A DNA stretch of 64,000 bases from Nitrospirota bacterium (GTDB lineage Bacteria > Nitrospirota > JACRHL01). Positions 17,766 to 51,024 of the stretch are shown here, piece by piece. Under the pieces are notes generated by a model, which saw only the letters and a list, made by a program, of their open reading frames with translations, searched no databases and was not told the origin of the DNA. The position numbers were made by a program, and so were the translations under genes. The stretch spans positions 321,178 to 385,177 of the forward strand of contig JACRHL010000003.1 of NCBI GenBank assembly GCA_016212085.1. The letters are read 5' to 3'. Numbering within the stretch: position 1 is the stretch's first letter; each line of letters opens with the position of its first letter.

Positions 17766-18170
17766 ATGACCGACGGATTCTATTACGCGATACTCATATC
17801 CTGGCTGCTGTCGTTCCTGTTCTACGGCCTCGCCGGAGGGCTGATCAAGGCCCGCACGGTCGGCCGCACGCCGCACATCATGCTCACCGTGGGCGGCTTC
17901 ATGACCGACTTCGTCGCCTACTTCTTCCAGACCCAGCACCTGGTGATCCTGGCGGCCACCGTGCCCGGCTTCGCCCTGGACCCGGCGCTGCGCGGCTGGC
18001 AGACCGTGGCGACAAACCTGTCCATGGCCATGTATTGCGTGACGGCGATGTTCGGCTTCGCGCGCGTTGTCGGGTGGCACGGCGTGGGCCGCTGGCACGT
18101 GCCCGTGGCGCTGCTGTTCGTGGTCAACCTGGTGACGGCGCGGACCCTCTACTGGCGGCTGATTAACTAG
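17766..18170 (+). CDS. hypothetical small membrane protein
   Basis: 134-aa ORF with 3-4 predicted TM helices; ends with TAG inside the CTAG that flanks the downstream repeat; no recognised family. Confidence 0.4.
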   Translation: MTDGFYYAILISWLLSFLFYGLAGGLIKARTVGRTPHIMLTVGGFMTDFVAYFFQTQHLVILAATVPGFALDPALRGWQTVATNLSMAMYCVTAMFGFARVVGWHGVGRWHVPVALLFVVNLVTARTLYWRLIN

Positions 18171-18335
18171 CAGACTGTTGAAAAAGTCCTTCCATGGACT
18201 TTCTCAACTCGAAACCGGCAAAGCGCGGTTTCCCGGTTTCTCCGGATTGCAGGCGCTGACGCGCTCGCAATCCGCCGGCACATCCCTGTGCCGGACGCAG
18301 ACATGCCGAAAAACGGTGTTTTAACCGCCTGCTAG
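18167..18335. mobile_element. hairpin-rich mosaic repeat element, family A (copy 1), flanked by CTAG/CTAG
   Basis: Core 18171-18331 begins CAGACTGTTGAAAAAGTCC...GGACTTTCTCAAC (perfect hairpin), further hairpins inside; CTAG at 18167-18170 and 18332-18335 provide TAG stops to the convergent flanking genes. Confidence 0.6.
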
Positions 18336-20329: not shown

Positions 20330-21220
20330 ATGGGACCGCCTCGCCAGACACCGGGAACCGACCACGCGGCGCTTCGCGAGCACCGGGCCCACCCGCGCGC
20401 CTTTCACGAGAACCGCTACGTGTACGCCGTGCTGTCGCGGCGCTCCGGCGGCATCTCCATCGGCGTCAACCTGAACCCGGACAAGCGCTGCAACTTCGAC
20501 TGCATCTACTGCCAGGTGGACCGCCGGTGCATGCCGCCGCCGGAGCCGGTGAACCTGGAACAACTGCGCGACGAGCTGGAGGGCGTCCTGGCCGCCGCCG
20601 CCCGCGGCGACCTGTACGCCGAGGCGCGCTTCCGCGACCTGCCGCCCCCCCTGAGACAGGTGCGCGACATCGCCCTGTCCGGCGACGGCGAGCCCACCCA
20701 GTGCACCCGTTTCGAGCGGGTGGCCGAGGTGGTCACCGAACTGGCCGCCCGCCACGCCACGCCACCGCTGCCGGTGGTGCTGATCACCAACGCCACCGGC
20801 CTGAACCGGAGCCGGGTGGTGCGCGGGGTGGACCGCATCATGGCCGGCGGCGGCGCCATCTGGGCCAAGCTCGACGCGGGCACGGCGGAGCGCTACGCGC
20901 GCATCTGCGGCCACCGGGTGCCGTTCCGGAAGGTGCTGGACAACCTGGCGGCCACCGCGCGCCGCCACCCCGTCACCCTGCAAACCTGCCTGTTCAACCT
21001 GGAGGGCAGCCCCCCGCCGGACGGGGAGATCGACGCCTACGCGAAACAGCTCGCCAAAATATTGGCGAATGACGGTCAAATCCTTGGCATCCAGCTTTAC
21101 ACGGTGGCCAGAAAACCGGCGGAATCCTGCGTGACCGCCCTCGACGCGTCCACCCTGGACGCCATCGCCGCCCGCATCGGCGCGGCCCTGCCCACGGTGC
21201 CGCTGCACGTTTATCCATAG
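20330..21220 (+). CDS. radical SAM domain protein
   Basis: CNFDCIYC (CxxxCxxC) about 50 aa from start, preceded by SRRSGGISIGVNLNP; start uncertain (ATG 20330 vs TTG 20321). Confidence 0.7.
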   Translation: MGPPRQTPGTDHAALREHRAHPRAFHENRYVYAVLSRRSGGISIGVNLNPDKRCNFDCIYCQVDRRCMPPPEPVNLEQLRDELEGVLAAAARGDLYAEARFRDLPPPLRQVRDIALSGDGEPTQCTRFERVAEVVTELAARHATPPLPVVLITNATGLNRSRVVRGVDRIMAGGGAIWAKLDAGTAERYARICGHRVPFRKVLDNLAATARRHPVTLQTCLFNLEGSPPPDGEIDAYAKQLAKILANDGQILGIQLYTVARKPAESCVTALDASTLDAIAARIGAALPTVPLHVYP

Positions 21221-21385
21221 CAGGATGTTGAAAAAGTCCCTCCATGGACTTTTTCAACTCGAAAACGGCAAAGCGTGGTTTCCCGTTCTCTCCGGGTTTC
21301 AAGCGCTTGCGCGCCTGAAACCCGCCGGTACCTCCCTGTACCGGGCGCAGGCTGTTGAAAAAGTCCCTCCATGGACTTTTTCCAA
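21218..21385. mobile_element. hairpin-rich mosaic repeat element, family A (copy 2)
   Basis: Begins immediately after radical-SAM TAG stop: TAG|CAGGATGTTGAAAAAGTCCCTCCATGGACTTTTTCAAC...; same hairpin repeated at its 3' end; TAG/ATAG at both ends. Confidence 0.55.
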
Positions 21386-21507
21386 TAGACCGGCCCGTGA
21401 CCGGCGCCCGGCGGCGCCGCCGGCGCGGGGTTGGCGCAGGGTTGGCACGGGAAATGCTATTCCTAACCTTTCGGGAGGGACAAAACCGCCCCCCGGAAGG
21501 AATCGTC

Positions 21508-21591: not shown

Positions 21592-21658
21592 CGCACCCCC
21601 CCCCCGCGCCGGCAGGCCGGGCACGGTGTACCAATCCGTACACTGTGTACACCGTGGT

Positions 21659-21801
21659 GGGCACCTCTAAAAACCTGCTACGCGGTTCGATTGCTGCGTT
21701 GGGCGGTGCTCGAACCCTCTCCTATCACCATGATATGTCTCGGGTTCTGTGCTCCGGCCACCTTGCACTCGAACCGCTCGCAACGGTTTTTAGAGGTGCC
21801 C
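21659..21801. mobile_element. 143-bp MITE, family B (intergenic copy upstream of dnaE)
   Basis: TIRs GGGCACCTCTAAAAACC / GGTTTTTAGAGGTGCCC; 4-bp direct duplication TGGT on both sides. Confidence 0.7.
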
Positions 21802-21952
21802 TGGTGCACCCGTCACGGCCACGTTCCGGCCGCCCATCGAACAGGCACGCCACCCGGACGCCGCCCGCGCCGGGTGATCCCCCCGTGGCGACGGACGCCG
21901 CGGCTCGGCTAGAATGGGGGCAACCCGCAACCCGTTGTCACCCCGGACCGCC

Positions 21953-25579
<3,627 letters not shown>

Positions 25580-25620: not shown

Positions 25621-26574
25621 ATGGTGCGCCAATACCTGGATTTCGAGAAACCCATCGCCGACATCCACGAGCAGATCGAGTCCCTGCGCGCGTCCGGCGC
25701 CGCCCCCGGCACCCACGACAAGGAGCTTGAGCGCCTCACCAAGAAGGCCCACTCCCTCGAGGTGGACATCTACGGCAAGCTCTCCCCCTGGCAGCAGACG
25801 CAACTGGCGCGCCACCCGGAGCGCCCCTCCATGCTCGACTACGTGGAAAAGTTCGTGGAGGGCTTCCTGGAACTGCACGGCGACCGCGCCTATCGGGACG
25901 ATCCGGCCATCGTCGGCGGCATCGGCCGTATCGGCACGCGCGAGGTGGTGATCATCGGCAACCAGAAGGGCCGCACCCTCAAGACCCGCGTCATCCGCAA
26001 CTTCGGCATGGCCAACCCGGAGGGGTACCGCAAGGCCCTGCGCCTGATGCACATGGCCGAGCGCTTCAAGAAGCCCGTGGTCTGCTTTGTCGACACCCCC
26101 GGCGCCTACCCCGGCATGGGCGCCGAGGAGCGCGGCCAGTCCGAGGCCATCGCCCGCAACCTGATGGAGATGGGCCGGCTCAAGGTGCCCATCGTGGTGG
26201 TCATCATCGGCGAGGGCGGCTCCGGCGGCGCCCTGGCGGTGGGCGTGGGCGACCGCATCCTGATGCTCGAGAACTCCGTCTACTCCGTCATCTCCCCCGA
26301 GGGGTGCGCGGCCATCCTGTGGAAGGACGGCACCAAGACCGCCACCGCCGCCGAGGCCCTGAAGGTGACCGCCAAGGATCTGTTGGCGCTGAAGGTGATC
26401 GACGAGATCCTGCCCGAGCCCCTGGGCGGCGGCCACCACGACGTGACCCAGATGTCCACCACCATCCGCACCGCCATCGTGCGCCACCTGGACCAGCTCG
26501 AGAAGATGTCCGAGAAGGAGCGCACCGAGGCCAGGTACCAGAAGTTCCGCGCCATGGGCGTGTACGAGGGCTAG
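25621..26574 (+). CDS. accA: acetyl-CoA carboxylase carboxyltransferase subunit alpha
   Basis: 317 aa colinear with remembered AccA (DFEKPIA, FDDPAIVGG-like, GEGGSGGALA); RBS ggag. Confidence 0.95.
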   Translation: MVRQYLDFEKPIADIHEQIESLRASGAAPGTHDKELERLTKKAHSLEVDIYGKLSPWQQTQLARHPERPSMLDYVEKFVEGFLELHGDRAYRDDPAIVGGIGRIGTREVVIIGNQKGRTLKTRVIRNFGMANPEGYRKALRLMHMAERFKKPVVCFVDTPGAYPGMGAEERGQSEAIARNLMEMGRLKVPIVVVIIGEGGSGGALAVGVGDRILMLENSVYSVISPEGCAAILWKDGTKTATAAEALKVTAKDLLALKVIDEILPEPLGGGHHDVTQMSTTIRTAIVRHLDQLEKMSEKERTEARYQKFRAMGVYEG

Positions 26575-26652
26575 ACCGCTGGACGGTACAGACCGAGACG
26601 CCCCCCGAGACGACGCCCCGCCCGGCGCCCCCGCGCCCCAGCCCCCCCGGTC

Positions 26653-26742
26653 CGCCGGCAGCCTGCCGGACAATTCCCTGCCCGACGGCAGCCCGCCGGA
26701 TGATTCGTTTTCCGACGGCAGCCTGCCGTTCGGGCCCCTGCG
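26653..26742 (+). repeat. three tandem 30-bp direct repeats, each with a near-palindrome GGCAGCCTGCC
   Basis: Units cgccggcagcctgccggacaattccctgcc / cgacggcagcccgccggatgattcgttttc / cgacggcagcctgccgttcgggcccctgcg. Confidence 0.6.
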
Positions 26743-26947
26743 CTACCGCATCGACCGCCGCGAGATCGCCTATTTAAGCTCCCTGTTCGAGTCCTACGAG
26801 GACCTGGGCGCCATCCGTACCCTGGACCCGGTGGCGGCGATCATCGAGGTTCTGTATGCTCCGGATTGCTACGCGGACGTGGTGGCGTTGATGACGGCGC
26901 TGGAGGGGGAGGTGGAGAGCCTGGAACGGATGCCACCGCTCCCGTAG
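26738..26947 (+). CDS. small conserved-looking ORF (DUF4911-like) lacking a canonical start codon
   Basis: Protein-like translation ...YRIDRREIAYLSSLFESYEDLGAIRTLDPVAAIIEVLYAPDCYADVVALMTALEGE...; no in-frame ATG/GTG/TTG upstream; CTG at 26738 proposed; family assignment from memory only. Confidence 0.3.
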   Translation: MRYRIDRREIAYLSSLFESYEDLGAIRTLDPVAAIIEVLYAPDCYADVVALMTALEGEVESLERMPPLP

Positions 26948-26968
26948 GCTGGCGCTGAATGAAATGAA

Positions 26969-27023
26969 GCCCAACGGTTCGGGGTTGCCGACGAACCATG
27001 AACGGGAAACGGGGGTGTTGGGC
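26969..27023 (+). other. attC-like site (candidate): GCCCAAC ... GTTGGGC
   Basis: Perfectly complementary 7-mers matching integron core consensus RYYYAAC / GTTRRRY, 41 bp apart, at the left boundary of the low-GC island. Confidence 0.3.
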
Positions 27024-27089
27024 TTCGCGTTGCATGCGCCAGAAGCTCGTCGATACAACGCTCCAATCGCCTGGGGATGGGAGATGGTC

Positions 27090-27815
27090 ATGAAGAAACT
27101 TGAAATTAAGAACTGGGACGGATTTTCGGGCAAGATCAGCGAAATTGAAAAGGATGCCTCGGAAAACAGCAACGCCATTCGGCTATTCCGAGGGGTTACC
27201 GATCATCAACATAACCTAGTCCCGAAAATCGGGAGACCCGGCGCGCGGAAGAATCCGGCAGATGGGACGCAACTGTCCCATTGCAAGGATGAAGAGCGTA
27301 AGATGTTGGAACTGTTCAAGAGGACGGCTCTTCCATACCTTCCATATCAGCCCAGGAATGATCTGGAGTGGCTTGCCGTTGCCCAACACCACGGAGCGCC
27401 GACCCGCCTGATTGACTGGACGGAAAGTCCCCTGGTTGCAGCGTATTTCGCGATGGAGAAGGCTGGCACGGAGGGGCAGCCGGCGATCTACGTGCTTTCC
27501 GGGACTGCGGAAGCCCCGGAGAAACTAGTTGACGAAAAGCCGGATGTCTTCTCCTGGACCGAGACGTACTGCTACCGTCCGCCACACATCAGTCCCCGTA
27601 TCCAAGTTCAGCGGAGCGTGTTCACCATACACCATTGTCCTTCGTCGGAGTTCAATCCAGATAACCTTGAAAAATGGGTGTTCCCGAAAGGTCCAACGTG
27701 CTTCGAGATCAAACGCATACTTGATCGTGTGGGCTTTAACCGAGCATCCCTATATCCAGATTTACAGGGGTTGGCAGAACACGTCGGATGGTGCTACAAG
27801 TGGGGCCGCTTCTAG
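27090..27815 (+). CDS. FRG-domain protein
   Basis: LFRGVTDHQHNLVPKIGR and AQHHGAPTRLIDWTESPLVAAYFA motifs characteristic of the FRG domain; ~47% GC versus ~70% background; ATG 27090 with gggag RBS. Confidence 0.7.
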   Translation: MKKLEIKNWDGFSGKISEIEKDASENSNAIRLFRGVTDHQHNLVPKIGRPGARKNPADGTQLSHCKDEERKMLELFKRTALPYLPYQPRNDLEWLAVAQHHGAPTRLIDWTESPLVAAYFAMEKAGTEGQPAIYVLSGTAEAPEKLVDEKPDVFSWTETYCYRPPHISPRIQVQRSVFTIHHCPSSEFNPDNLEKWVFPKGPTCFEIKRILDRVGFNRASLYPDLQGLAEHVGWCYKWGRF

Positions 27816-27880
27816 TGGCAAGTTGGGGTTCGCTCCGCTCTGCCAAACTTATATAGCTTTTCCAACTGGGAAACCGTGCT

Positions 27881-28276
27881 TTGAACATCCACGCAATCAC
27901 CGTCTCAGCCGTTAGGATCGCTCTAGCTGCTCTCATGTGCGGCGGATTGGCATCTTGCGTCCATACACGAAGTATCACCTACGAAACGACCGACAGGCCG
28001 CCGAAGCCACAAGACCGATTGATCGGGATCGTGGACTCCCAAACCGTTACTAGGCCATTCACGATCATCGGTGTTGTAGAAGGAAACGCCGGGAAGCTGC
28101 ATAGTGTCGTGGATACGTTGGAAAACCTCAAGCGTGCGGCTCGGCGGATGGGCGGCGACGCCTTGATGGATATTCAACACGGGCCCAAGGGGGGTGTGGC
28201 AGTGCCCTTCGGAAGCGGCTATGCCTATGGGAATTTAAGGGAAATCTGGTCAGCGAAAGTGATTATCTGGCAGTAG
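27881..28276 (+). CDS. putative lipoprotein (hypothetical)
   Basis: Signal peptide with lipobox LASC; ~55% GC; TTG start at 27881 (uncertain); weak resemblance to the YbjQ-like fold only. Confidence 0.4.
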   Translation: MNIHAITVSAVRIALAALMCGGLASCVHTRSITYETTDRPPKPQDRLIGIVDSQTVTRPFTIIGVVEGNAGKLHSVVDTLENLKRAARRMGGDALMDIQHGPKGGVAVPFGSGYAYGNLREIWSAKVIIWQ

Positions 28277-28279
28277 CCC

Positions 28280-28347
28280 GTTGGGCAGAGCAACGCGAAG
28301 CCAAACGCCACGGTGGCCACCCGTGGCACTCCGGGAAGGCGTTGGGC
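28280..28347 (+). other. attC-like repeats at right boundary of low-GC island
   Basis: GTTGGGC (28280-28286), GCCAAAC (28300-28306), palindrome gccacggtggccacccgtggc, GTTGGGC (28341-28347); the 17-mer GTTGGGCTTCGCGTTGC recurs inverted relative to the left boundary. Confidence 0.3.
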
Positions 28348-28451
28348 TTCGCTACACTCTTCCCAACCTACAATTCGCGCTCTATGGGCGCGCCGATTTC
28401 CCCCTCATAGACGTCCGGTTTTGCGCCGAACCCGGAGACACCCAACCTCCC

Positions 28452-29147
28452 CTAAGGCATCGAATAAACGGTTGGGTCTTCCTGCCCTGCCTCCACAAAT
28501 CCCCTCCTCCGCAAAATGCAGCTATCGCACTGCCCGCACGCCCGGCCCTTCTCGTCCGGGTCGTAGCAGCTATGGGTCAGGCCGTAGTCCACCCCCAGGC
28601 GGATTCCCTCCCGGATGATGTCCGCCTTGGTCATGCGGATCAGGGGGGCGTGGATGGTGAAGCGGCCGCCCTCGGCGCCGGCCTTGGTGGCCAGGTTGGC
28701 CAGGTTCTCGAAGGCGCCCAGGAATTCCGGCCGGCAGTCCGGGTAGCCCGAGTAGTCGATGGCGTTGGCGCCCACGAAGATGTGGAACGCGCCCAGCACC
28801 TCGGCATAGGCCAGGGCCAGGGCCAGGAACACCGTGTTGCGCGCGGGCACGTAGGTGACCGGGATGTCGTCCCCCATGTGTTCGGCGCTGCGGCCCTTGG
28901 GCACGTCTATCGCGTCCGTCAGGGCGGAGCCGCCCAGGTCGCTCAAGTCCACCCGCACCGTCTTGTGGGCCAGGGCGCCCCCGGCCGCCGCCACCTTCCG
29001 CGCCGCCGCCAGTTCCACCCGGTGGCGCTGGCCATAGTCGAAGCTGATGGCGTAGGGGGCGTAGCCCTGGGCCTTCGCCATGGCCAGCACCGTGGCCGAA
29101 TCCAGGCCGCCGCTCACCAGCACCACCGCCTTCCGGACACCTTCCAA
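28452..29147 (-). CDS. queC: 7-cyano-7-deazaguanine synthase
   Basis: N-terminal [14 protein letters not shown]-loop, C-terminal Zn-binding CGQCDSC; proposed TTG start 29147 lies inside the adjacent MITE terminus. Confidence 0.8.
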
Positions 29148-29277
29148 AACCTGCCGCGCGCCCCGATCGCTGCGTTGGGCGGTGCCCGGCCCCTCGCCTA
29201 TCGGCTTGACATGTCTCGGGGCCTGCGCTCCGTCCGCCTTGCGCTCGGGGCGCTCGCCACGGTTTCCGATGGTGCCC
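29135..29277. mobile_element. 143-bp MITE, family B (degenerate copy at queC 5' end)
   Basis: Degenerate TIRs GGACACCTTCCAAAACC / GGTTTCCGATGGTGCCC; internal sequence matches other copies (ccgagacatgtc, gcgatcggggcgcgc). Confidence 0.6.
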
Positions 29278-29457
29278 GTCTGTCCCGTGTTCATGGGGGC
29301 GATTTTGGGCACGGGGGCGTGATCCGTCAAGCCACGCCCGGCGCCGGAACCGGCGCGGGGGCGTGGCACCGGGCCCGTGGTTGGGATACACTGGCCCCTT
29401 TCCGCGTTCCGCGCCGGGGGACACCTCCCGCCACCATATGGATGTGAGCCAACGCCC

Positions 29458-34281: not shown

Positions 34282-34446
34282 GGGCACCTCTATTAACCGT
34301 CGCGCGCGCCCCCTGGTGCCAGGTGCCCCGAGCGGAGCGGCACCGTTACGCCGCGCGGAACCCGAGACATATCCGGGTGATGGGCGAGGGTTCGAGCACC
34401 GCTGGGCGCGGCAATCGGGGCGCGCGGCAGGTTGATAGAGGTGCCC
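34282..34446. mobile_element. 165-bp MITE, family B (copy with internal expansion)
   Basis: TIRs GGGCACCTCTATTAACC / GGTTGATAGAGGTGCCC; no matching target duplication; abuts transposase remnant. Confidence 0.7.
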
Positions 34447-34610
34447 AGGCGTTTGGCGTCCGACACGGGCGTGCCACCGAACTTGTTGCGCCAGAGGTAA
34501 CAGCTCGCCTCCGAGAACCCGTGCCGCCGGCACAAGTCCTTCACCGGCATTCCGGCATCGGCCTCGCGCAGAAAACCGGTGATCTGCTCTTCCGAAAACC
34601 GCTTCTTCAT
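34447..34610 (-). pseudogene. IS3-family transposase OrfA N-terminal fragment (truncated by MITE)
   Basis: MKKRFSEEQITGFLREADAGMPVKDLCRRHGFSEASCYLWRNKFGG...DAKRL (HTH region of IS3/IS911-type OrfA) with GGAG RBS; reading frame then runs into the repeat. Confidence 0.55.
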
Positions 34611-38557: not shown

Positions 38558-38690
38558 GTTCCCATGCAGTGTGTTGCAAAAGCTCTTCCCCGGCTTGTTC
38601 AACTCGAAACCGGAAAAGCGTGGTTTTCCGGTTTCTCCGGCGCCAGAAAAGCCTCTCACACGGATTGTCACCCTGCGGATGCGGGCGGGT
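38558..38690. repeat. partial family A repeat element
   Basis: ttgttcaactcgaaaccggaaaagcgtggttttccggtttctccgg closely matches the central hairpin module of the other family A copies. Confidence 0.45.
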
Positions 38691-39355: not shown

Positions 39356-39436
39356 GCCTCGACCTCCACGATGCCGTTGACCTGTCGGCACGTCCCCGCT
39401 TGCCGGGATGGAGCATGGGGCCGCGCCGGTAAACAT

Positions 39437-39581
39437 GGGCACCTCTATTAACCGTCGCGAGCGCCCCGAGCGCAAGGCGGACTTAAGCGGAGAACCCGAG
39501 ACATATCATGGTGATAGGAGAGGGTTCGAGCACCGCTTAGGCGCAGCAATCGGGGCGCACAGCAGGTTAATAGAGGTGCCC
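39437..39581. mobile_element. 145-bp MITE, family B
   Basis: TIRs GGGCACCTCTATTAACC / GGTTAATAGAGGTGCCC; 4-bp duplication ACAT on both sides. Confidence 0.75.
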
Positions 39582-39713
39582 ACATGTGCCAGCCTCAATT
39601 TTGAGGATACCCCCCCTCCAATCGGCCACTCCATTCCCGGCCGGGTCGGAAATAGACCGCGCCCTCCCAATTGTTCACGGAGGTGAGTGCCCCACCCGGA
39701 GACGAGGCGCCGA

Positions 39714-44976: not shown

Positions 44977-45109
44977 GGGCGACTAAAAACTACTGCGCGG
45001 CTCGATTGCCGCGTTGGGCGGTGCCCGCACTCTCTCCACGAGATGTCTCGGGTCATGCGCTCCGTCCGCCTTGTGCCCGAACCATTCGCGTCGGTTGTTG
45101 GCGGTACCC
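44977..45109. mobile_element. 133-bp MITE, family B (degenerate copy)
   Basis: Degenerate termini GGGCGACTAAAAAC / GGTTGTTGGCGGTACCC; internal match to family core. Confidence 0.55.
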
Positions 45110-48302: not shown

Positions 48303-48322
48303 GCGCTGGCCCTCCATGCTCA

Positions 48323-48465
48323 GGGCACCTCTATTAACCGTCGCGAGCGCTCCGATTGCAAGGCGGACGGAGCGGAGAACCCGAGACATATCTGGGTGAT
48401 AGGCGAGGGTTCGAGCACCGCCCAACGCAGCAATCGGAGCGCGCAGTAGGTTAATAGAGGTGCCC
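48323..48465. mobile_element. 143-bp MITE, family B (inside mer operon, between merP and merB)
   Basis: TIRs GGGCACCTCTATTAACC / GGTTAATAGAGGTGCCC; 4-bp duplication CTCA on both sides. Confidence 0.75.
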
Positions 48466-48466
48466 C

Positions 48467-48748
48467 TCACTCGACCGGCCGCGAGGGGTAGCCGGCGTTG
48501 GTCGTCGCCCGGGTGAGGGCCCCCACGTCCGTGAGCACATCGTCGAACGTCACCACGGCTTGCTTGTGCAACAGGGACACCTTGACCGCCTTCACGCCGG
48601 GAACATGGGAAAGGGCCTTTTTCACGGTGATCGGGCAGGTGACGCAGGTCATCCGCTCCACCCCCAGGGTGACGGTCCGCTCCGTCGCGATGGCGTTTCC
48701 GGTGGACACCAGGAGAGCGACGGCCACCAGGATCGGTACAAGCTTCAT
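48467..48748 (-). CDS. merP: periplasmic mercury-binding protein
   Basis: Signal peptide plus HMA motif GMTCVTCPITVKKAL; 93 aa; AGGAGGG RBS. Confidence 0.85.
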   Translation of the reverse strand: MKLVPILVAVALLVSTGNAIATERTVTLGVERMTCVTCPITVKKALSHVPGVKAVKVSLLHKQAVVTFDDVLTDVGALTRATTNAGYPSRPVE

Positions 48749-49989: not shown

Positions 49990-50155
49990 CAGGTTGTTGA
50001 AAAACGGCGTTTTTCGGCATGACTGCGTCCGGTACCGGGAGGTACCGGCGGATTTCACGCGGGCAAGCGCCTGGAATCCGGAGAAACCGGGAAACCGCGC
50101 TGTTCCGGCTTCAAGTTGAAAAAGGCCACGGATGGACTTCTTCAACATCCCGCCG
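49986..50155. mobile_element. hairpin-rich mosaic repeat element, family A (copy 4, opposite orientation)
   Basis: Starts at merR stop: CTAG|CAGGTTGTTGAAAAACGG...; ~80% identical to the reverse complement of copy 1. Confidence 0.55.
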
Positions 50156-50160
50156 GACCA

Positions 50161-51024
50161 TCAGCCGGGCGAATCCGCCTTAAGCCACGCGGCCAGGTCG
50201 GCGAACACCGCCCGGCGCTCCGTTTCCAGCAACACCTCGTGGAACATCTCCGGGTATTCCCGGTAGGTGGCCGCCGGGCAGCGGGCGCACCACGCCCGCG
50301 CCGCCGCCGGCGCCACCACCCGGTCGGCGCCCGCCTGCAAACACAACAGCGGCAGGTCCACGTCGGCGGCGTGGGCGTTCACGAACGCCATCTCGCGGCA
50401 CACCTCCGTGAACCAGCGCACGTTCACCCACTTGAAGATGAGCGGGTCGGCACGGCGCCGCGCCTCCTGCTCCGGGTCGTGGCTGTTGGCGTAATCGCCG
50501 CCCCCGGCGGGTAGCGACAGCCACGGCAACGCGCCGCTGACCAGCTCCCCCAGGCGCCGCCGCAGGGGCGGCACCGGCAGGCGGATCGCAAGCAGCGGCG
50601 AGGTGACGGCCACCCGCTCCACCCCCCAGCGCGCCAGCGCCGCGGGGCGCCGGATCAGGGACGACAGCGCCACCAGGCCGCCGGTGCTGTGGCCGAGCAG
50701 GGCCCAGCGCGCCACCCCGGAGCGTTCGCGGGCGGTGGCCAGGGCCTGGTGCAGGTCGTCCAGATACTCCTCGAAACGCCCGAGGCGGCCACGCAGGCCG
50801 CTGGAGCGGCCATGGCCACGCGGGTCCATGGCCCACACGGCCAGGCCCCGGCCCGCGAAGAACGCGAACAGCTCGCCGTAGCGCTCCAGGTGGTCGGTAT
50901 AGCCGGGCAGCAGGAACAGGCCGCGGCCGGCGCCGTCCGGGGTGATGCCGGCCAGGTGCAGGCGGGCGCCCGGAACGGGCAGGGTCAGGTGCTGGGTGCC
51001 CTCGGGAAGGGGGCGGGGGGTCAC
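50161..51024 (-). CDS. alpha/beta-hydrolase (lysophospholipase/monoacylglycerol lipase-like)
   Basis: Nucleophile elbow GHSTGG, HGRSSG oxyanion region; GTG start 51024 overlaps upstream stop (GTGA). Confidence 0.75.
   Translation of the reverse strand: MTPRPLPEGTQHLTLPVPGARLHLAGITPDGAGRGLFLLPGYTDHLERYGELFAFFAGRGLAVWAMDPRGHGRSSGLRGRLGRFEEYLDDLHQALATARERSGVARWALLGHSTGGLVALSSLIRRPAALARWGVERVAVTSPLLAIRLPVPPLRRRLGELVSGALPWLSLPAGGGDYANSHDPEQEARRRADPLIFKWVNVRWFTEVCREMAFVNAHAADVDLPLLCLQAGADRVVAPAAARAWCARCPAATYREYPEMFHEVLLETERRAVFADLAAWLKADSPG

What the first reader, a model, noticed from the sequence alone, without database searches (positions are those of the whole stretch)
26950..28370. Low-GC two-gene island (FRG-domain protein + lipoprotein) bounded by attC-like inverted repeats
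A ~1.3-kb stretch at ~47-55% GC sits in a ~70% GC chromosome between accA and queC. It carries an FRG-domain ORF (a poorly characterised family; a defence or conflict role is my inference) and a small lipoprotein. Both ends carry the same 17-mer GTTGGGCTTCGCGTTGC in inverted orientation, with 7-mers matching integron attC cores (GCCCAAC...GTTGGGC left; GCCAAAC...GTTGGGC right). This looks like a horizontally delivered cassette, possibly an integron-type cassette without a nearby integrase, carrying an uncharacterised two-gene module. Caveat: GTTGGG/CCCAAC motifs also occur elsewhere in the window.
Basis: partly seen in the sequence, partly recalled or inferred. Interest (0 to 1): 0.8.

Follow-up and report, generated by a model that had tools for sequence, protein, structure and literature searches.

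The report
Foreign two-gene islet flanked by REP repeats
A 1.4-kb stretch of foreign, low-GC DNA in a Nitrospirota genome carries a candidate anti-phage enzyme gene and an unrelated small lipoprotein gene, and its "attC-like" flanking repeats are copies of a known family of bacterial extragenic palindromes (REP/REPIN), not integron recombination sites, so the locus is fairly ordinary.

Summary
Positions 26,950-28,450 are the lowest-GC part of the window (GC3 0.62-0.64, against 0.87-0.96 in neighbouring genes). They encode an FRG-domain protein and a lipoprotein and carry the reported inverted 17-mer (the right copy has one mismatch).

The attC reading does not hold. The repeats are five copies of one 27-31-nt unit, GTAGGTTGGGC...GCGAAGCCCAAC. 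They form two hairpin doublets (26944-27042 and 28280-28371) and one singlet (27822-27848). It is spread over many contigs in Pseudomonas, Methylomonas and Ca. Methylophosphatis, often beside housekeeping genes. It is also the published REP of Coxiella burnetii, which is associated with a RAYT transposase. The "attC cores" are simply the REP stem.

In this window the unit occurs only in the islet. The host's own dispersed repeats belong to two different families.

The two genes are never neighbours elsewhere. FRG matches PADLOC candidate PDC-S15, and its model has an ADP-ribosyltransferase-like fold. Its closest homologs sit in integron cassette contexts, one of them beside a decayed integron integrase. 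Relatives carry different cargo at this spot.

Verdict: a small horizontally acquired islet with passenger REP elements. Interest is low to moderate.

The parts
26702..26947 (+). Host DUF4911 gene (conserved core and C-terminus), which forms the left border of the islet. Its TAG stop (26945-26947) overlaps the GTAG of the first REP.
   Evidence: The C-terminus ...SLERMPPLP aligns with DUF4911 proteins of relatives L010, L012 and L014. Relatives show PF16256 at the same position. GC3 is 0.87.
26944..27042 (.). Left REPIN-type doublet. Arm E is 26944-26975: GTAGGCTGGCGCTGAATGAAATGAAGCCCAAC. A 41-nt spacer follows. Arm A is 27017-27042: GTTGGGCTTCGCGTTGCATGCGCCAG.
   Evidence: The 22-mer GCTGAATGAAATGAAGCCCAAC of arm E is 100% identical to a REP copy in Ca. 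Nitrotoga (L052) and 22/23 identical to Methylomonas (L119). The 17-mer of arm A equals the REP variant found in L024, L047, L054, L055 and L068. The inner stem is GAAGCCCAAC/GTTGGGCTTC and the outer stem is CTGGCGC/GCGCCAG. DNA fold energy is -25.7 kcal/mol, z -2.7.
27090..27815 (+). Stand-alone FRG-domain protein (241 aa; NCBI MBI5136037.1). It is a predicted ADP-ribosyltransferase-superfamily enzyme and a candidate single-gene anti-phage effector.
27822..27848 (.). Lone REP unit B (GTTGGGGTTCGCTCCGCTCTGCCAAAC) in the 65-nt spacer between the two genes.
   Evidence: Exact match to the 27-nt family pattern. 22/23 identical to Methylomonas copies and 25/27 to L086. No partner arm, and the fold is not better than shuffles (z -0.5).
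27881..28276 (+). Small lipoprotein (131 aa, TTG start) of an uncharacterised ~128-aa family, unrelated to FRG.
   Evidence: Only 22 database hits (one of them a self match); the lipobox Cys is nearly invariant. No Pfam, PADLOC or PHROG match. Model pLDDT 78. Weak Foldseek similarity to the DUF74/YbjQ fold (3qkb, E 3e-3), SrfN and FvfA.
28280..28371 (.). Right REPIN-type doublet. Arm C is 28280-28306: GTTGGGCAGAGCAACGCGAAGCCAAAC. A 34-nt spacer follows. Arm D is 28341-28371: GTTGGGCTTCGCTACACTCTTCCCAACCTAC. A GTAG lies at 28273-28276 and overlaps the lipoprotein stop codon.
   Evidence: Both arms match the 27-nt pattern exactly. Arm D differs from the 31-nt consensus at 1 of 27 specified positions. 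The ~90-nt hairpin folds at -28.6 kcal/mol (98-nt segment, z -4.6) and -30.9 kcal/mol (111-nt segment, z -4.7); 0 of 200 shuffles fold as well. It has 134 blastn-short hits among the fetched REP loci.
28452..29171 (-). Host queC, which forms the right border and converges on the lipoprotein gene.
   Evidence: Pfam QueC PF06508, E 3e-75. GC3 0.90. queC-moeA is conserved in relative L010.

Best explanation
The locus is a small (~1.4 kb) horizontally acquired islet. It sits in a variable spot between the conserved dnaE-accA-DUF4911 block and queC of a 70%-GC Nitrospirota MAG.

It carries two independent accessory genes:
(i) A stand-alone FRG-domain protein. This is a member of the ADP-ribosyltransferase superfamily and of PADLOC candidate PDC-S15. 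It most likely acts as a single-gene, NAD+-consuming or ADP-ribosylating anti-phage effector (inferred, not shown).
(ii) An exported small lipoprotein with a YbjQ/DUF74-like fold and unknown role.

The inverted repeats are not recombination sites of an integron. They are five copies of the REP family GTAGGTTGGGC-N-GCGAAGCCCAAC, arranged as two REPIN-type hairpin doublets and one singlet, one in each of the three intergenic spacers. This is a class of REP linked to RAYT (REP-associated tyrosine transposases). The 'attC cores' GCCCAAC/GTTGGGC are the REP's own stem. The shared 17-mer is a common loop variant of the family.

The REPs are confined to the islet, are mutually diverged, and belong to a family that in this scan was abundant only in Proteobacteria. 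They therefore most likely came in as passengers with the foreign DNA from a REP-bearing donor (inferred). They now do what extragenic hairpins usually do, namely end or stabilise transcripts between genes (inferred).
For: REP identity:
- The 27-nt pattern derived from the window copies gives 3 exact hits in the window, against 0.02 expected.
These are dispersed over many contigs in Pseudomonas sp. BN417, BN102 and BN411, Ca. Methylophosphatis and Methylomonas, as inverted doublets about 20 nt apart, as tandem arrays of 120-140 nt, and as singlets. The extended consensus ends in CCTAC (GTAG on the other strand).
- Nunvar et al. 2010 list GTAGGTTGGGCTGAGCTTGCGAAGCCCAAC as the RAYT-associated REP of Coxiella burnetii (PMC2817692).
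- The window arms match specific family variants at 22/22 and 17/17.
- The REPIN definition is two inverted REPs plus a spacer (PMC3337134). Both flanks fold that way.
- In six of the ten flanking proteins scanned from low-copy genomes, the neighbours are recognisable housekeeping or ordinary chromosomal genes (MgsA, Lnt, T2SS-F, E2 acyltransferase and others); no integrase or cassette-type gene appeared.

Foreign islet:
- GC and GC3 are far below host values.
- Relatives have other genes there, and L010 has its own low-GC insert at the same spot.
- The best FRG homolog is 64% identical and the best lipoprotein homolog 63%.

REPs tied to the islet:
- No other copy occurs in the window, even allowing 9 of 27 mismatches.
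- The host's own repeat families H1 (7 copies) and H2 (4 copies) fill other spacers.
- No REP-like unit is found in about 48 kb from relatives.

Independent genes: no co-occurrence in L003-L009 or L136-L143.

FRG function: PDC-S15, ART-like fold, and the literature (PMC9503650).
Against: - Only 64 kb of this genome could be read, so the REP family might be common elsewhere in it, with a resident RAYT.
- The left REP's GTAG overlaps the stop codon of a host gene whose C-terminus looks native. That fits a REPIN that inserted in situ at least as well as one imported with the islet.
- No donor with near-identical DNA is known.
- None of the examined FRG or lipoprotein homolog loci carries this REP.
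- RAYT association of this exact family rests on one published table, not on a test here. The one Y1 transposase found in the fetched loci (L129) is not flanked by the REP.
Confidence: 0.6

Rival explanations
1. The REPs are resident elements of this Nitrospirota genome, a generic REP/REPIN population maintained by its own RAYT. They colonised the spacers of the islet after it arrived. The islet is still foreign, but the repeats say nothing about its origin.
For: REPINs are described as moving within a genome and being inherited vertically (bioRxiv 10.1101/2024.10.14.618302 and 10.1101/2021.07.10.451892, abstracts). The left REP abuts and overlaps the native stop codon of the host DUF4911 gene. 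Each doublet is internally consistent, with outer stems E/A and C/D that pair within the doublet, as expected for REPINs inserted as whole units.
Against: All five units lie in the three islet spacers. None lies in the other ~62 kb, even at 9 of 27 mismatches, although other spacers hold 11 copies of two different host repeat families. No Y1 transposase is found in the window (a weak test). No copy is found in about 48 kb of relatives. The copies are diverged from each other and from the consensus, unlike an active population.
Confidence: 0.22
2. One reading: one or two integron-type gene cassettes, or a cluster of attC sites lacking an integrase (CALIN). These were delivered by IntI-mediated recombination at G|TTGGGC, and the hairpins are attC sites.
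For: The closest FRG homologs sit in integron cassette contexts: L007-L009 beside an intI pseudogene (TIGR02249, E 3e-53 and 2e-27) and near a canonical attC (GTCTAAC..GTTAGGC); L006 and L136 with GTTAGGC 50-56 nt upstream and GCCTAAC downstream. In the window GTTGGGC lies 73 nt upstream of the FRG start. The left site is the only strictly complementary RYYYAAC/GTTRRRY pair within 45-150 nt in 64 kb. A 15-nt direct repeat GG[T/C]GTTGGGCTTCGC lies 1324 bp apart.
Against: - The 7-mers are embedded in 22-31-nt matches to a REP family that is dispersed in other genomes, not arrayed.
- Pairing continues 5-20 nt outside the 'R boxes'.
- There is no L''/L' stem with an unpaired spacer. In the left site the bases after R'' fold on themselves.
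- The right R'' (GCCAAAC) violates RYYYAAC, and that site would be only 48 nt long.
- The middle copy is a lone half-site, so FRG has no attC of its own.
- No intI is in the window.
- A crossover model (ancestral E-D site plus incoming C-A site) is contradicted. The outer stems pair E with A (7/7) and C with D, not across the junctions.
Confidence: 0.06
3. The two REPINs are the working ends of a composite mobile unit. The segment 26944-28371 moved as a block, either by a Y1 (RAYT/IS200-type) transposase acting on the terminal hairpins or by recombination between REPs.
For: Hairpin elements of one family sit at both ends in mirror arrangement. The 25-nt terminal inverted match (27009-27033 / 28290-28314) is 84% complementary. 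Y1 transposases recognise subterminal hairpins (abstract of PMC6006769).
Against: No transposase is in or near the islet. No second copy of the unit is known anywhere. The REP family flanks ordinary genes elsewhere, and no cargo-carrying REPIN pairs were seen in the low-copy loci whose neighbours were annotated. The inverted match is fully explained by both flanks being palindromic members of one family. No target-site duplication could be defined.
Confidence: 0.05
4. FRG and the lipoprotein form a functional two-gene system, for example a toxin or effector with a partner or immunity protein.
Against: No co-occurrence was found. FRG homologs have unrelated neighbours in L006, L007-9 and L136. 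Lipoprotein homologs have no FRG neighbour in L003-5, L137-140 or L141-143. The lipoprotein is exported, so it cannot neutralise a cytoplasmic enzyme. PADLOC treats PDC-S15 as a single-gene candidate (from my own knowledge of the PDC-S naming; not checked here). A REP unit separates the genes.
Confidence: 0.04

Closest known systems
REP / REPIN elements associated with RAYT transposases (Nunvar et al. 2010; Bertels & Rainey 2011), specifically the class GTAGGTTGGGC...GCGAAGCCCAAC reported for Coxiella burnetii
   Same: The sequence matches the family consensus, with exact 27-nt pattern matches and 17- and 22-nt identities to copies in other genomes. Arms E and D carry the terminal GTAG/CTAC. 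The units are imperfect palindromes in extragenic positions directly after stop codons. They are arranged as inverted doublets with a spacer, which fold into long hairpins.
   Different: Here there are only five copies, clustered in one 1.4-kb foreign islet of a Nitrospirota genome, rather than tens to hundreds dispersed in a proteobacterial genome. No RAYT was seen. Two arms (E and A) have a changed, mutually compensating outer stem (CTGGCGC/GCGCCAG), and arms A and B lack GTAG.
Integron gene cassettes, attC sites and CALINs (clusters of attC sites lacking an integrase)
   Same: A short promoter-poor foreign segment with small co-oriented ORFs. Hairpins contain GCCCAAC/GTTGGGC, which fit RYYYAAC/GTTRRRY. 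The FRG subfamily sits in integron cassette contexts elsewhere (L006, L007, L136).
   Different: The hairpins lack attC architecture: the R boxes are not at the outer end, and there is no L box, spacer or extrahelical-base pattern. The right R'' is off-consensus and that site is too short. One copy is a lone half-site. No intI is present. The same sequence is a dispersed REP in other genomes.
PADLOC phage-defence candidate PDC-S15 / Frg clade of the ADP-ribosyltransferase superfamily (Iyer, Burroughs, Anantharaman, Aravind 2022)
   Same: A nearly full-length match to the PDC-S15 model, Pfam FRG, and an ART-like predicted fold. It is a stand-alone single gene on mobile or accessory DNA.
   Different: No experimental defence phenotype or enzymology exists for this protein, or for any FRG protein in the papers read here. 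It is not embedded in a recognisable defence island.
BIMEs (bacterial interspersed mosaic elements) of enterobacteria
   Same: REPs in alternating orientation between convergent or tandem genes, and likely roles as transcript-end hairpins.
   Different: A different REP sequence class. No evidence here for the IHF or gyrase-binding motifs that define BIME subtypes.
YbjQ/DUF74 and YdgH/BhsA/SrfN-type small alpha/beta proteins
   Same: The lipoprotein model has a similar small beta-sheet-plus-helix fold (Foldseek probability 1.0 but E only 3e-3; TM 0.45-0.59).
   Different: No sequence-level family match. It is lipidated and exported, and the function is unknown.

Membership tests
Integron attC site / gene cassette | Complementary core sites R'' (RYYYAAC) and R' (GTTRRRY) about 50-150 nt apart | tested here: inconclusive
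   Left site: GCCCAAC/GTTGGGC, 55 nt, 7/7 complementary. It is the only such pair in 64 kb. Right site: GCCAAAC fails RYYYAAC at position 4, and the site would be 48 nt. The same 7-mers are part of every copy of the REP consensus.
Integron attC site / gene cassette | Folded-strand architecture: the R-box stem lies at the outer end, followed by an unpaired central spacer, an L''/L' stem with extrahelical bases, and a variable terminal loop | tested here: not met
   Pairing extends outward beyond the R boxes: GAA/TTC plus CTGGCGC/GCGCCAG on the left, and GCGAA/TTCGC plus GTTGGGCAGAG/CTCTTCCCAAC on the right. On the left, the bases after R'' form a local hairpin (GGTTCG..CGAACC) and do not pair with the R' side. 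On the right, the R stem runs straight into GCC/GGC. This is judged against the textbook attC description (own knowledge), not against a model.
Integron attC site / gene cassette | One complete attC downstream of each cassette ORF, all in one orientation | tested here: not met
   The element after FRG (27822-27848) is a single 27-nt unit without a partner arm, and its fold is no better than shuffles (z -0.5).
Integron attC site / gene cassette | Integron integrase nearby, or a larger attC cluster | tested here: not met
   tblastn with the IntI fragments of L007 finds nothing in the window (best E 0.29). No other RYYYAAC/GTTRRRY pair is present in the window. The rest of the genome could not be read.
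Integron attC site / gene cassette | Score above threshold with an attC covariance model (IntegronFinder) | not testable with these tools
   No attC model was available. The Rfam scan of the window at gathering thresholds returned no match to any family.
REP / REPIN (RAYT-associated) | Sequence membership in a described REP class | tested here: met
   Three exact matches to the 27-nt pattern, against 0.02 expected. The published Coxiella REP is GTAGGTTGGGCTGAGCTTGCGAAGCCCAAC. Arm-level identities of 22/22 and 17/17.
REP / REPIN (RAYT-associated) | Short imperfect palindrome with a conserved terminal GTAG | tested here: met
   GTAGG is present at arm E (26944) and arm D (CCTAC, 28367-28371). 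Arm C has GTAG 3 nt away (28273-28276). Arms A and B lack it.
REP / REPIN (RAYT-associated) | Extragenic location and inverted doublets with a spacer that fold into a hairpin | tested here: met
   All units lie in the three intergenic spacers. The doublets are 26944-27042 (-25.7 kcal/mol, z -2.7) and 28280-28371 (-30.9 kcal/mol, z -4.7).
REP / REPIN (RAYT-associated) | Many dispersed copies in the same genome | tested here: not met
   Within the 64 kb the copies are confined to the islet, with no further copy at up to 9 of 27 mismatches. The remaining genome is not available, so this bears on the origin of the copies, not on what they are.
REP / REPIN (RAYT-associated) | A cognate RAYT (Y1 transposase) gene in the genome | not testable with these tools
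   No Y1 transposase is found in the window by tblastn with the L129 Y1_Tnp protein.
FRG domain / PADLOC PDC-S15 | Profile match above the curated threshold over most of the protein | tested here: met
   PF08867: 91.6 bits against a cut-off of 25. PDLC04938: E 2e-66, covering residues 1-237 of 241.
FRG domain / PADLOC PDC-S15 | ADP-ribosyltransferase-superfamily fold | tested here: met
FRG domain / PADLOC PDC-S15 | Anti-phage activity or NADase / ADP-ribosylation activity | not testable with these tools
   This needs experiments. No solved structure of the family exists.
Bacterial lipoprotein | N-terminal signal peptide ending in a lipobox L-x-[GAS]-C | tested here: met
   The N-terminus is MNIHAITVSAVRIALAALMCGGLASC. 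The Cys column is nearly invariant (at least 90%) in the 22-sequence alignment of the family.

The most novel reading that the evidence does not exclude
The two REPINs are not passive passengers but the functional ends of a REPIN-bounded cargo unit. In this reading, a Y1/RAYT-type enzyme or REP-to-REP recombination moved the FRG-lipoprotein block, hairpins included, from a proteobacterium into a Nitrospirota chromosome. REPINs would then be able to ferry defence genes between phyla, against the current view that REPIN populations are inherited only vertically.
Probability: 0.06. Interest if true: 0.7.

Novelty: new member of a known kind. Interest (0 to 1): 0.25.

Why it matters
The main value is corrective. 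A tempting 'orphan integron cassette' turns out to be a REP-flanked scrap of foreign DNA, and the attC-like 7-mers are intrinsic to a widespread REP consensus. Anyone screening for attC sites by core motifs, and possibly attC models too, could be misled by this family.

Three smaller points may interest specialists:
1. REP/REPIN copies of a family that this scan found in high copy number only in Proteobacteria sit inside a horizontally acquired islet in Nitrospirota. They might serve as a fingerprint of the donor lineage. They would also be an example of REPs crossing phyla as passengers, even though REPINs are held to be vertically inherited.
2. The FRG / PDC-S15 subfamily recurs in integron cassette contexts. 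This adds to the picture of integrons as stores of defence candidates.
3. The DUF4911-queC interval is a recurrent landing spot for low-GC DNA in this lineage.

Tried and rejected
1. attC reading. A strict search for complementary RYYYAAC/GTTRRRY pairs found only the left site in the window. The folds then showed a non-attC architecture. Rejected once the genome scan and the literature identified the unit as a REP.

2. Campbell-type or IntI-type crossover model (ancestral hairpin E-D in the chromosome, hairpin C-A on an incoming circle, exchange within GTTGGGCTTCGC). Attractive because arm A matches arm C at 16/17 while arm D diverges after 12 nt. Rejected because the outer stems pair E with A (CTGGCGC/GCGCCAG, 7/7) and C with D. 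Also, GCGTTGC is simply a common loop variant of the family.

3. Two-gene module. Rejected by the lack of co-occurrence. The 235-aa neighbour of lipoprotein homologs in L003-5 is not an FRG protein.

4. Empty-site comparison. No relative has an empty DUF4911-queC junction. They carry other genes, and none of their flanks resembles the repeats.

5. REP association with cassettes or islands in low-copy genomes (Chamaesiphon, Anammoxibacter, Poribacteria, Pseudoalteromonas, Mariprofundaceae). Some copies lie at GC shifts, but the annotated neighbours are ordinary chromosomal genes. Not pursued.

6. Finding a RAYT next to the REP in the fetched loci. Only one Y1_Tnp ORF was found (L129, E 2e-6), and it lies 3 kb from the REP and is not flanked by it. 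Inconclusive.

7. Rfam (gathering thresholds) found nothing in the window. The promoter/terminator scan gave nothing above chance. PDB sequence searches were empty.

8. Metagenome scan, not run. The protein searches already show that neither the host (accA at 100% identity only in NCBI) nor any donor with more than 66% identity is present in those collections. Exact-pattern scans for an empty site or a donor would therefore very likely be futile.

9. Building an attC covariance model from the few attC sites seen in L006, L007 and L136. Judged too weak to be informative and not done.
Full report
**What is in the sequence**

The window is 70% GC. Between about 26,950 and 28,450 the 200-nt GC falls to 0.49-0.58. 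The lowest-GC 1.4-kb stretch of the 64 kb lies here (0.554; mean 0.699, sd 0.031). Third-codon-position GC is 0.62 and 0.64 for the two ORFs, against 0.87-0.96 for dnaE, accA, DUF4911, queC and the moeA-like gene.

The gene order is:
- dnaE, 21914-25579
- accA, 25621-26574
- a DUF4911 gene ending at 26947
- the FRG ORF, 27090-27815
- a 131-aa ORF, 27881-28276
- queC on the minus strand, 28452-29171
- a moeA-like gene

. FRG is confirmed: PF08867, E 6e-26. The 131-aa ORF has a signal peptide and the lipobox LASC, and the lipobox Cys is nearly invariant across its 21 homologs. Contigs assembled independently from other runs are 100% identical across both junctions, so the arrangement is real.

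The proteins are NCBI MBI5136035.1 (accA) and MBI5136037.1 (FRG), from a 'Nitrospirae/Nitrospirota bacterium' MAG.

**The repeats**

The 17-mer is exact at 27017-27033. Its inverted copy at 28290-28306 has one mismatch. No other match exists in the window.

Reading further, I found that the 17-mer is part of a 27-nt unit, GTTGGGCTTCGC-NNNNC-TCTGCCCAAC. This unit occurs three times in full (27822-27848, 28280-28306 inverted, 28341-28367), where 0.02 matches are expected by chance. It also occurs twice in altered form (arm E at 26944-26975 and arm A at 27017-27042).

The units form a 99-nt hairpin doublet on the left, a lone unit between the two genes, and a 92-nt hairpin doublet on the right. 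Fold energies are -25.7 and -30.9 kcal/mol, with z scores of -2.7 and -4.7.

**What the repeats are**

It returned 120 stretches of DNA holding 148 strict copies. The pattern carries about 40 bits of information, so less than one chance hit is expected (my own estimate).

The copies are dispersed:
- 25 fetched stretches from Pseudomonas sp. BN417
- 15 each from Pseudomonas sp. BN102 and BN411
- 17 from Ca. Methylophosphatis roskildensis
- 7 from one Methylomonas MAG
- single or few copies in Nitrotoga, Chamaesiphon, Poribacteria, Anammoxibacter, Mariprofundaceae and others

Aligned, they give GTAGGTTGGGCAGAGCGAAGCGAAGCCCAAC, about 20 nt of spacer, then GTTGGGCTTCGCTTCGCTCTGCCCAACCTAC. That is two inverted palindromic units, each ending in GTAG. 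They also occur as singlets and as tandem arrays with a 120-140-nt period.

This is the definition of REP sequences organised as REPINs (PMC3337134). Nunvar et al. 2010 list GTAGGTTGGGCTGAGCTTGCGAAGCCCAAC as the REP associated with the RAYT transposase of Coxiella burnetii (PMC2817692).

The window copies match particular variants exactly:
- The 22-mer of arm E is identical to a Nitrotoga copy.
- Arm D differs from the 31-nt consensus at one position.

. In the low-copy genomes, the flanking proteins that could be annotated are ordinary chromosomal genes such as MgsA, Lnt, T2SS-F and a 2-oxoacid dehydrogenase E2.

**Why they are not attC sites**

GCCCAAC and GTTGGGC fit RYYYAAC and GTTRRRY, and the left pair is the only such complementary pair in the window. 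But these 7-mers are the stem of every copy of the REP.

The hairpins also fail the attC architecture:
- They pair well beyond the supposed R boxes.
- They lack an L-box stem and central spacer.
- The right R'' (GCCAAAC) is off-consensus, and that site would be only 48 nt long.
- The element after FRG is a lone half-site.

. No integron integrase is in the window.

I also tested a crossover model. In it, an incoming circle with hairpin C-A recombines with a chromosomal hairpin E-D. The outer stems contradict it: E pairs with A through a private, compensating CTGGCGC/GCGCCAG stem, and C pairs with D. An attC covariance model was not available, so that formal test remains open.

**Are the REPs host or foreign?**

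In the window the family is confined to the three spacers of the islet, even when 9 of 27 mismatches are allowed. The other spacers carry two different host repeat families:
- H1, about 145 nt with terminal inverted repeats, 7 copies
- H2, 4 copies

. About 48 kb from four relatives holds no REP-like unit. The five copies are diverged from one another.

This favours passengers that arrived with the foreign DNA from a REP-bearing donor; in this scan the family was abundant only in Proteobacteria. Against this, the GTAG of the left REP overlaps the stop codon of a host gene whose C-terminus aligns with relatives to its end. That would also fit insertion in situ. Only a scan of the whole MAG can decide. 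I put import at roughly twice the likelihood of residency.

**The genes**

FRG:
- The next-best homolog is only 64% identical.
- It matches PADLOC candidate PDC-S15 over its full length, E 2e-66.
- This agrees with Iyer et al. 2022, who place Frg in the ART superfamily as a predicted NADase-type immune effector (PMC9503650).
- Invariant residues in 40 homologs include R34-G35 of the FRG motif, H100, R106, D109-W110 and Q174.
- No solved structure or assay exists. The NAD+-dependent defence mechanism is therefore inference.

Its closest homologs sit in integron cassette contexts:
- L007-L009, beside an intI pseudogene that hits the integron-integrase model TIGR02249, with a canonical attC in the same array
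- L006 and L136, with GTTAGGC upstream and GCCTAAC downstream

.

The lipoprotein:
- It belongs to a small family (21 homologs found).
- It has no profile match in Pfam, PADLOC or PHROGs.
- Its model resembles DUF74/YbjQ, SrfN and FvfA only weakly.
- Its homologs sit next to a DDE transposase (L003), next to a tyrosine recombinase that is not an IntI (L137), or in an array with RM, SIR2, SieB and AbiGi genes (L141).
- They never sit next to FRG, and FRG homologs have no constant neighbour.

The pair is therefore two independent accessory genes, not a module.

**Context in relatives**

The dnaE-accA-DUF4911 block is conserved at 73-84% accA identity. What follows differs:
- L010 has a glyoxalase and a low-GC PMT_2 glycosyltransferase (GC 0.49 against 0.645) before queC-moeA.
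- L012 has TetR, ODP and MarR genes.
- L014 has an M48 peptidase.

. The interval is a recurrent landing spot, and no empty site is available for comparison.

**Verdict**

It is wrong on its most exciting point, the attC sites and an orphan integron cassette carrying a two-gene module.

The locus combines known kinds of things: REP/REPIN elements, an FRG / PDC-S15 candidate and a small lipoprotein. The residual interest lies in REPs riding on transferred DNA across phyla, and in this REP family as a possible look-alike for attC cores. I score interest at 0.25.

Noticed in passing
window 24463-24606 (inside dnaE); other copies at 21654-21803, 29135-29287, 34282-34447, 39427-39583, 44985-45109, 48321-48470: A host repeat family of about 145 nt with terminal inverted repeats (GGGCACCTCTATTAACC...GGTTAATAGAGGTGCCC) has 7 copies in 64 kb. 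One copy (144 nt, 48 codons) lies in frame inside dnaE and lengthens a loop that is short and variable in relatives (1221 aa against 1160-1180 aa). This resembles Rickettsia palindromic elements inserted in genes. It has no Rfam match.
   Followed up: partly
window 18156-18322, 21218-21389, 38594-38640, 50001-50167: A second host dispersed repeat family (130-167 nt, 81-91% identity between copies, both orientations), unrelated to the REP at the islet.
   Followed up: no
window 26576-26947: The DUF4911 reading frame is open from the accA stop onward, but it has no ATG, GTG or TTG upstream of the last 38 codons. Upstream of the conserved core lie three 30-nt tandem repeats (26651-26750) that encode proline/aspartate-rich repeats absent from relatives. 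One gene caller skipped the gene.
   Followed up: partly
L010:8340-9914 (closest relative, accA 84% identical): A low-GC (0.49 against 0.645) PMT_2 glycosyltransferase gene sits next to queC, in the same DUF4911-queC interval that holds the islet in the window. The interval therefore looks like a hot spot for foreign DNA in this lineage.
   Followed up: partly
L141:1-8600 and L143 (loci of lipoprotein homolog P0128): A co-oriented array: RM methylase and BsuBI/PstI endonuclease, a SIR2_2 protein, DUF4760, the lipoprotein homolog, two unknown genes, SieB and AbiGi. A repeated intergenic module of about 100 nt (TTGACAAATGAGCAAATGATGCCGCAGATTGAATTGAAGA...) precedes several of the genes. It is not attC-like by eye.
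   Followed up: no
loci L016-L135 (genome scan): The 27-nt REP core is nearly identical across very distant bacteria: Pseudomonas, Methylomonas, Ca. Methylophosphatis, Nitrotoga, Chamaesiphon, Poribacteria, Anammoxibacter and Mariprofundaceae. This is unusual for REPs, which are usually lineage-specific. In some low-copy genomes the copy lies at a local GC shift (L044, L046, L106).
   Followed up: partly
L007:4586-7310 (Gammaproteobacteria MAG GCA_975305705.1): A decayed integron. intI is split into two ORFs (TIGR02249 positions 2-75 and 83-217). It is followed by cassettes that encode a 131-aa repeat-rich secreted protein, the FRG homolog and an 82-aa lipoprotein, and the array ends with a canonical 90-nt attC (GTCTAAC...GTTAGGC).
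   Followed up: partly
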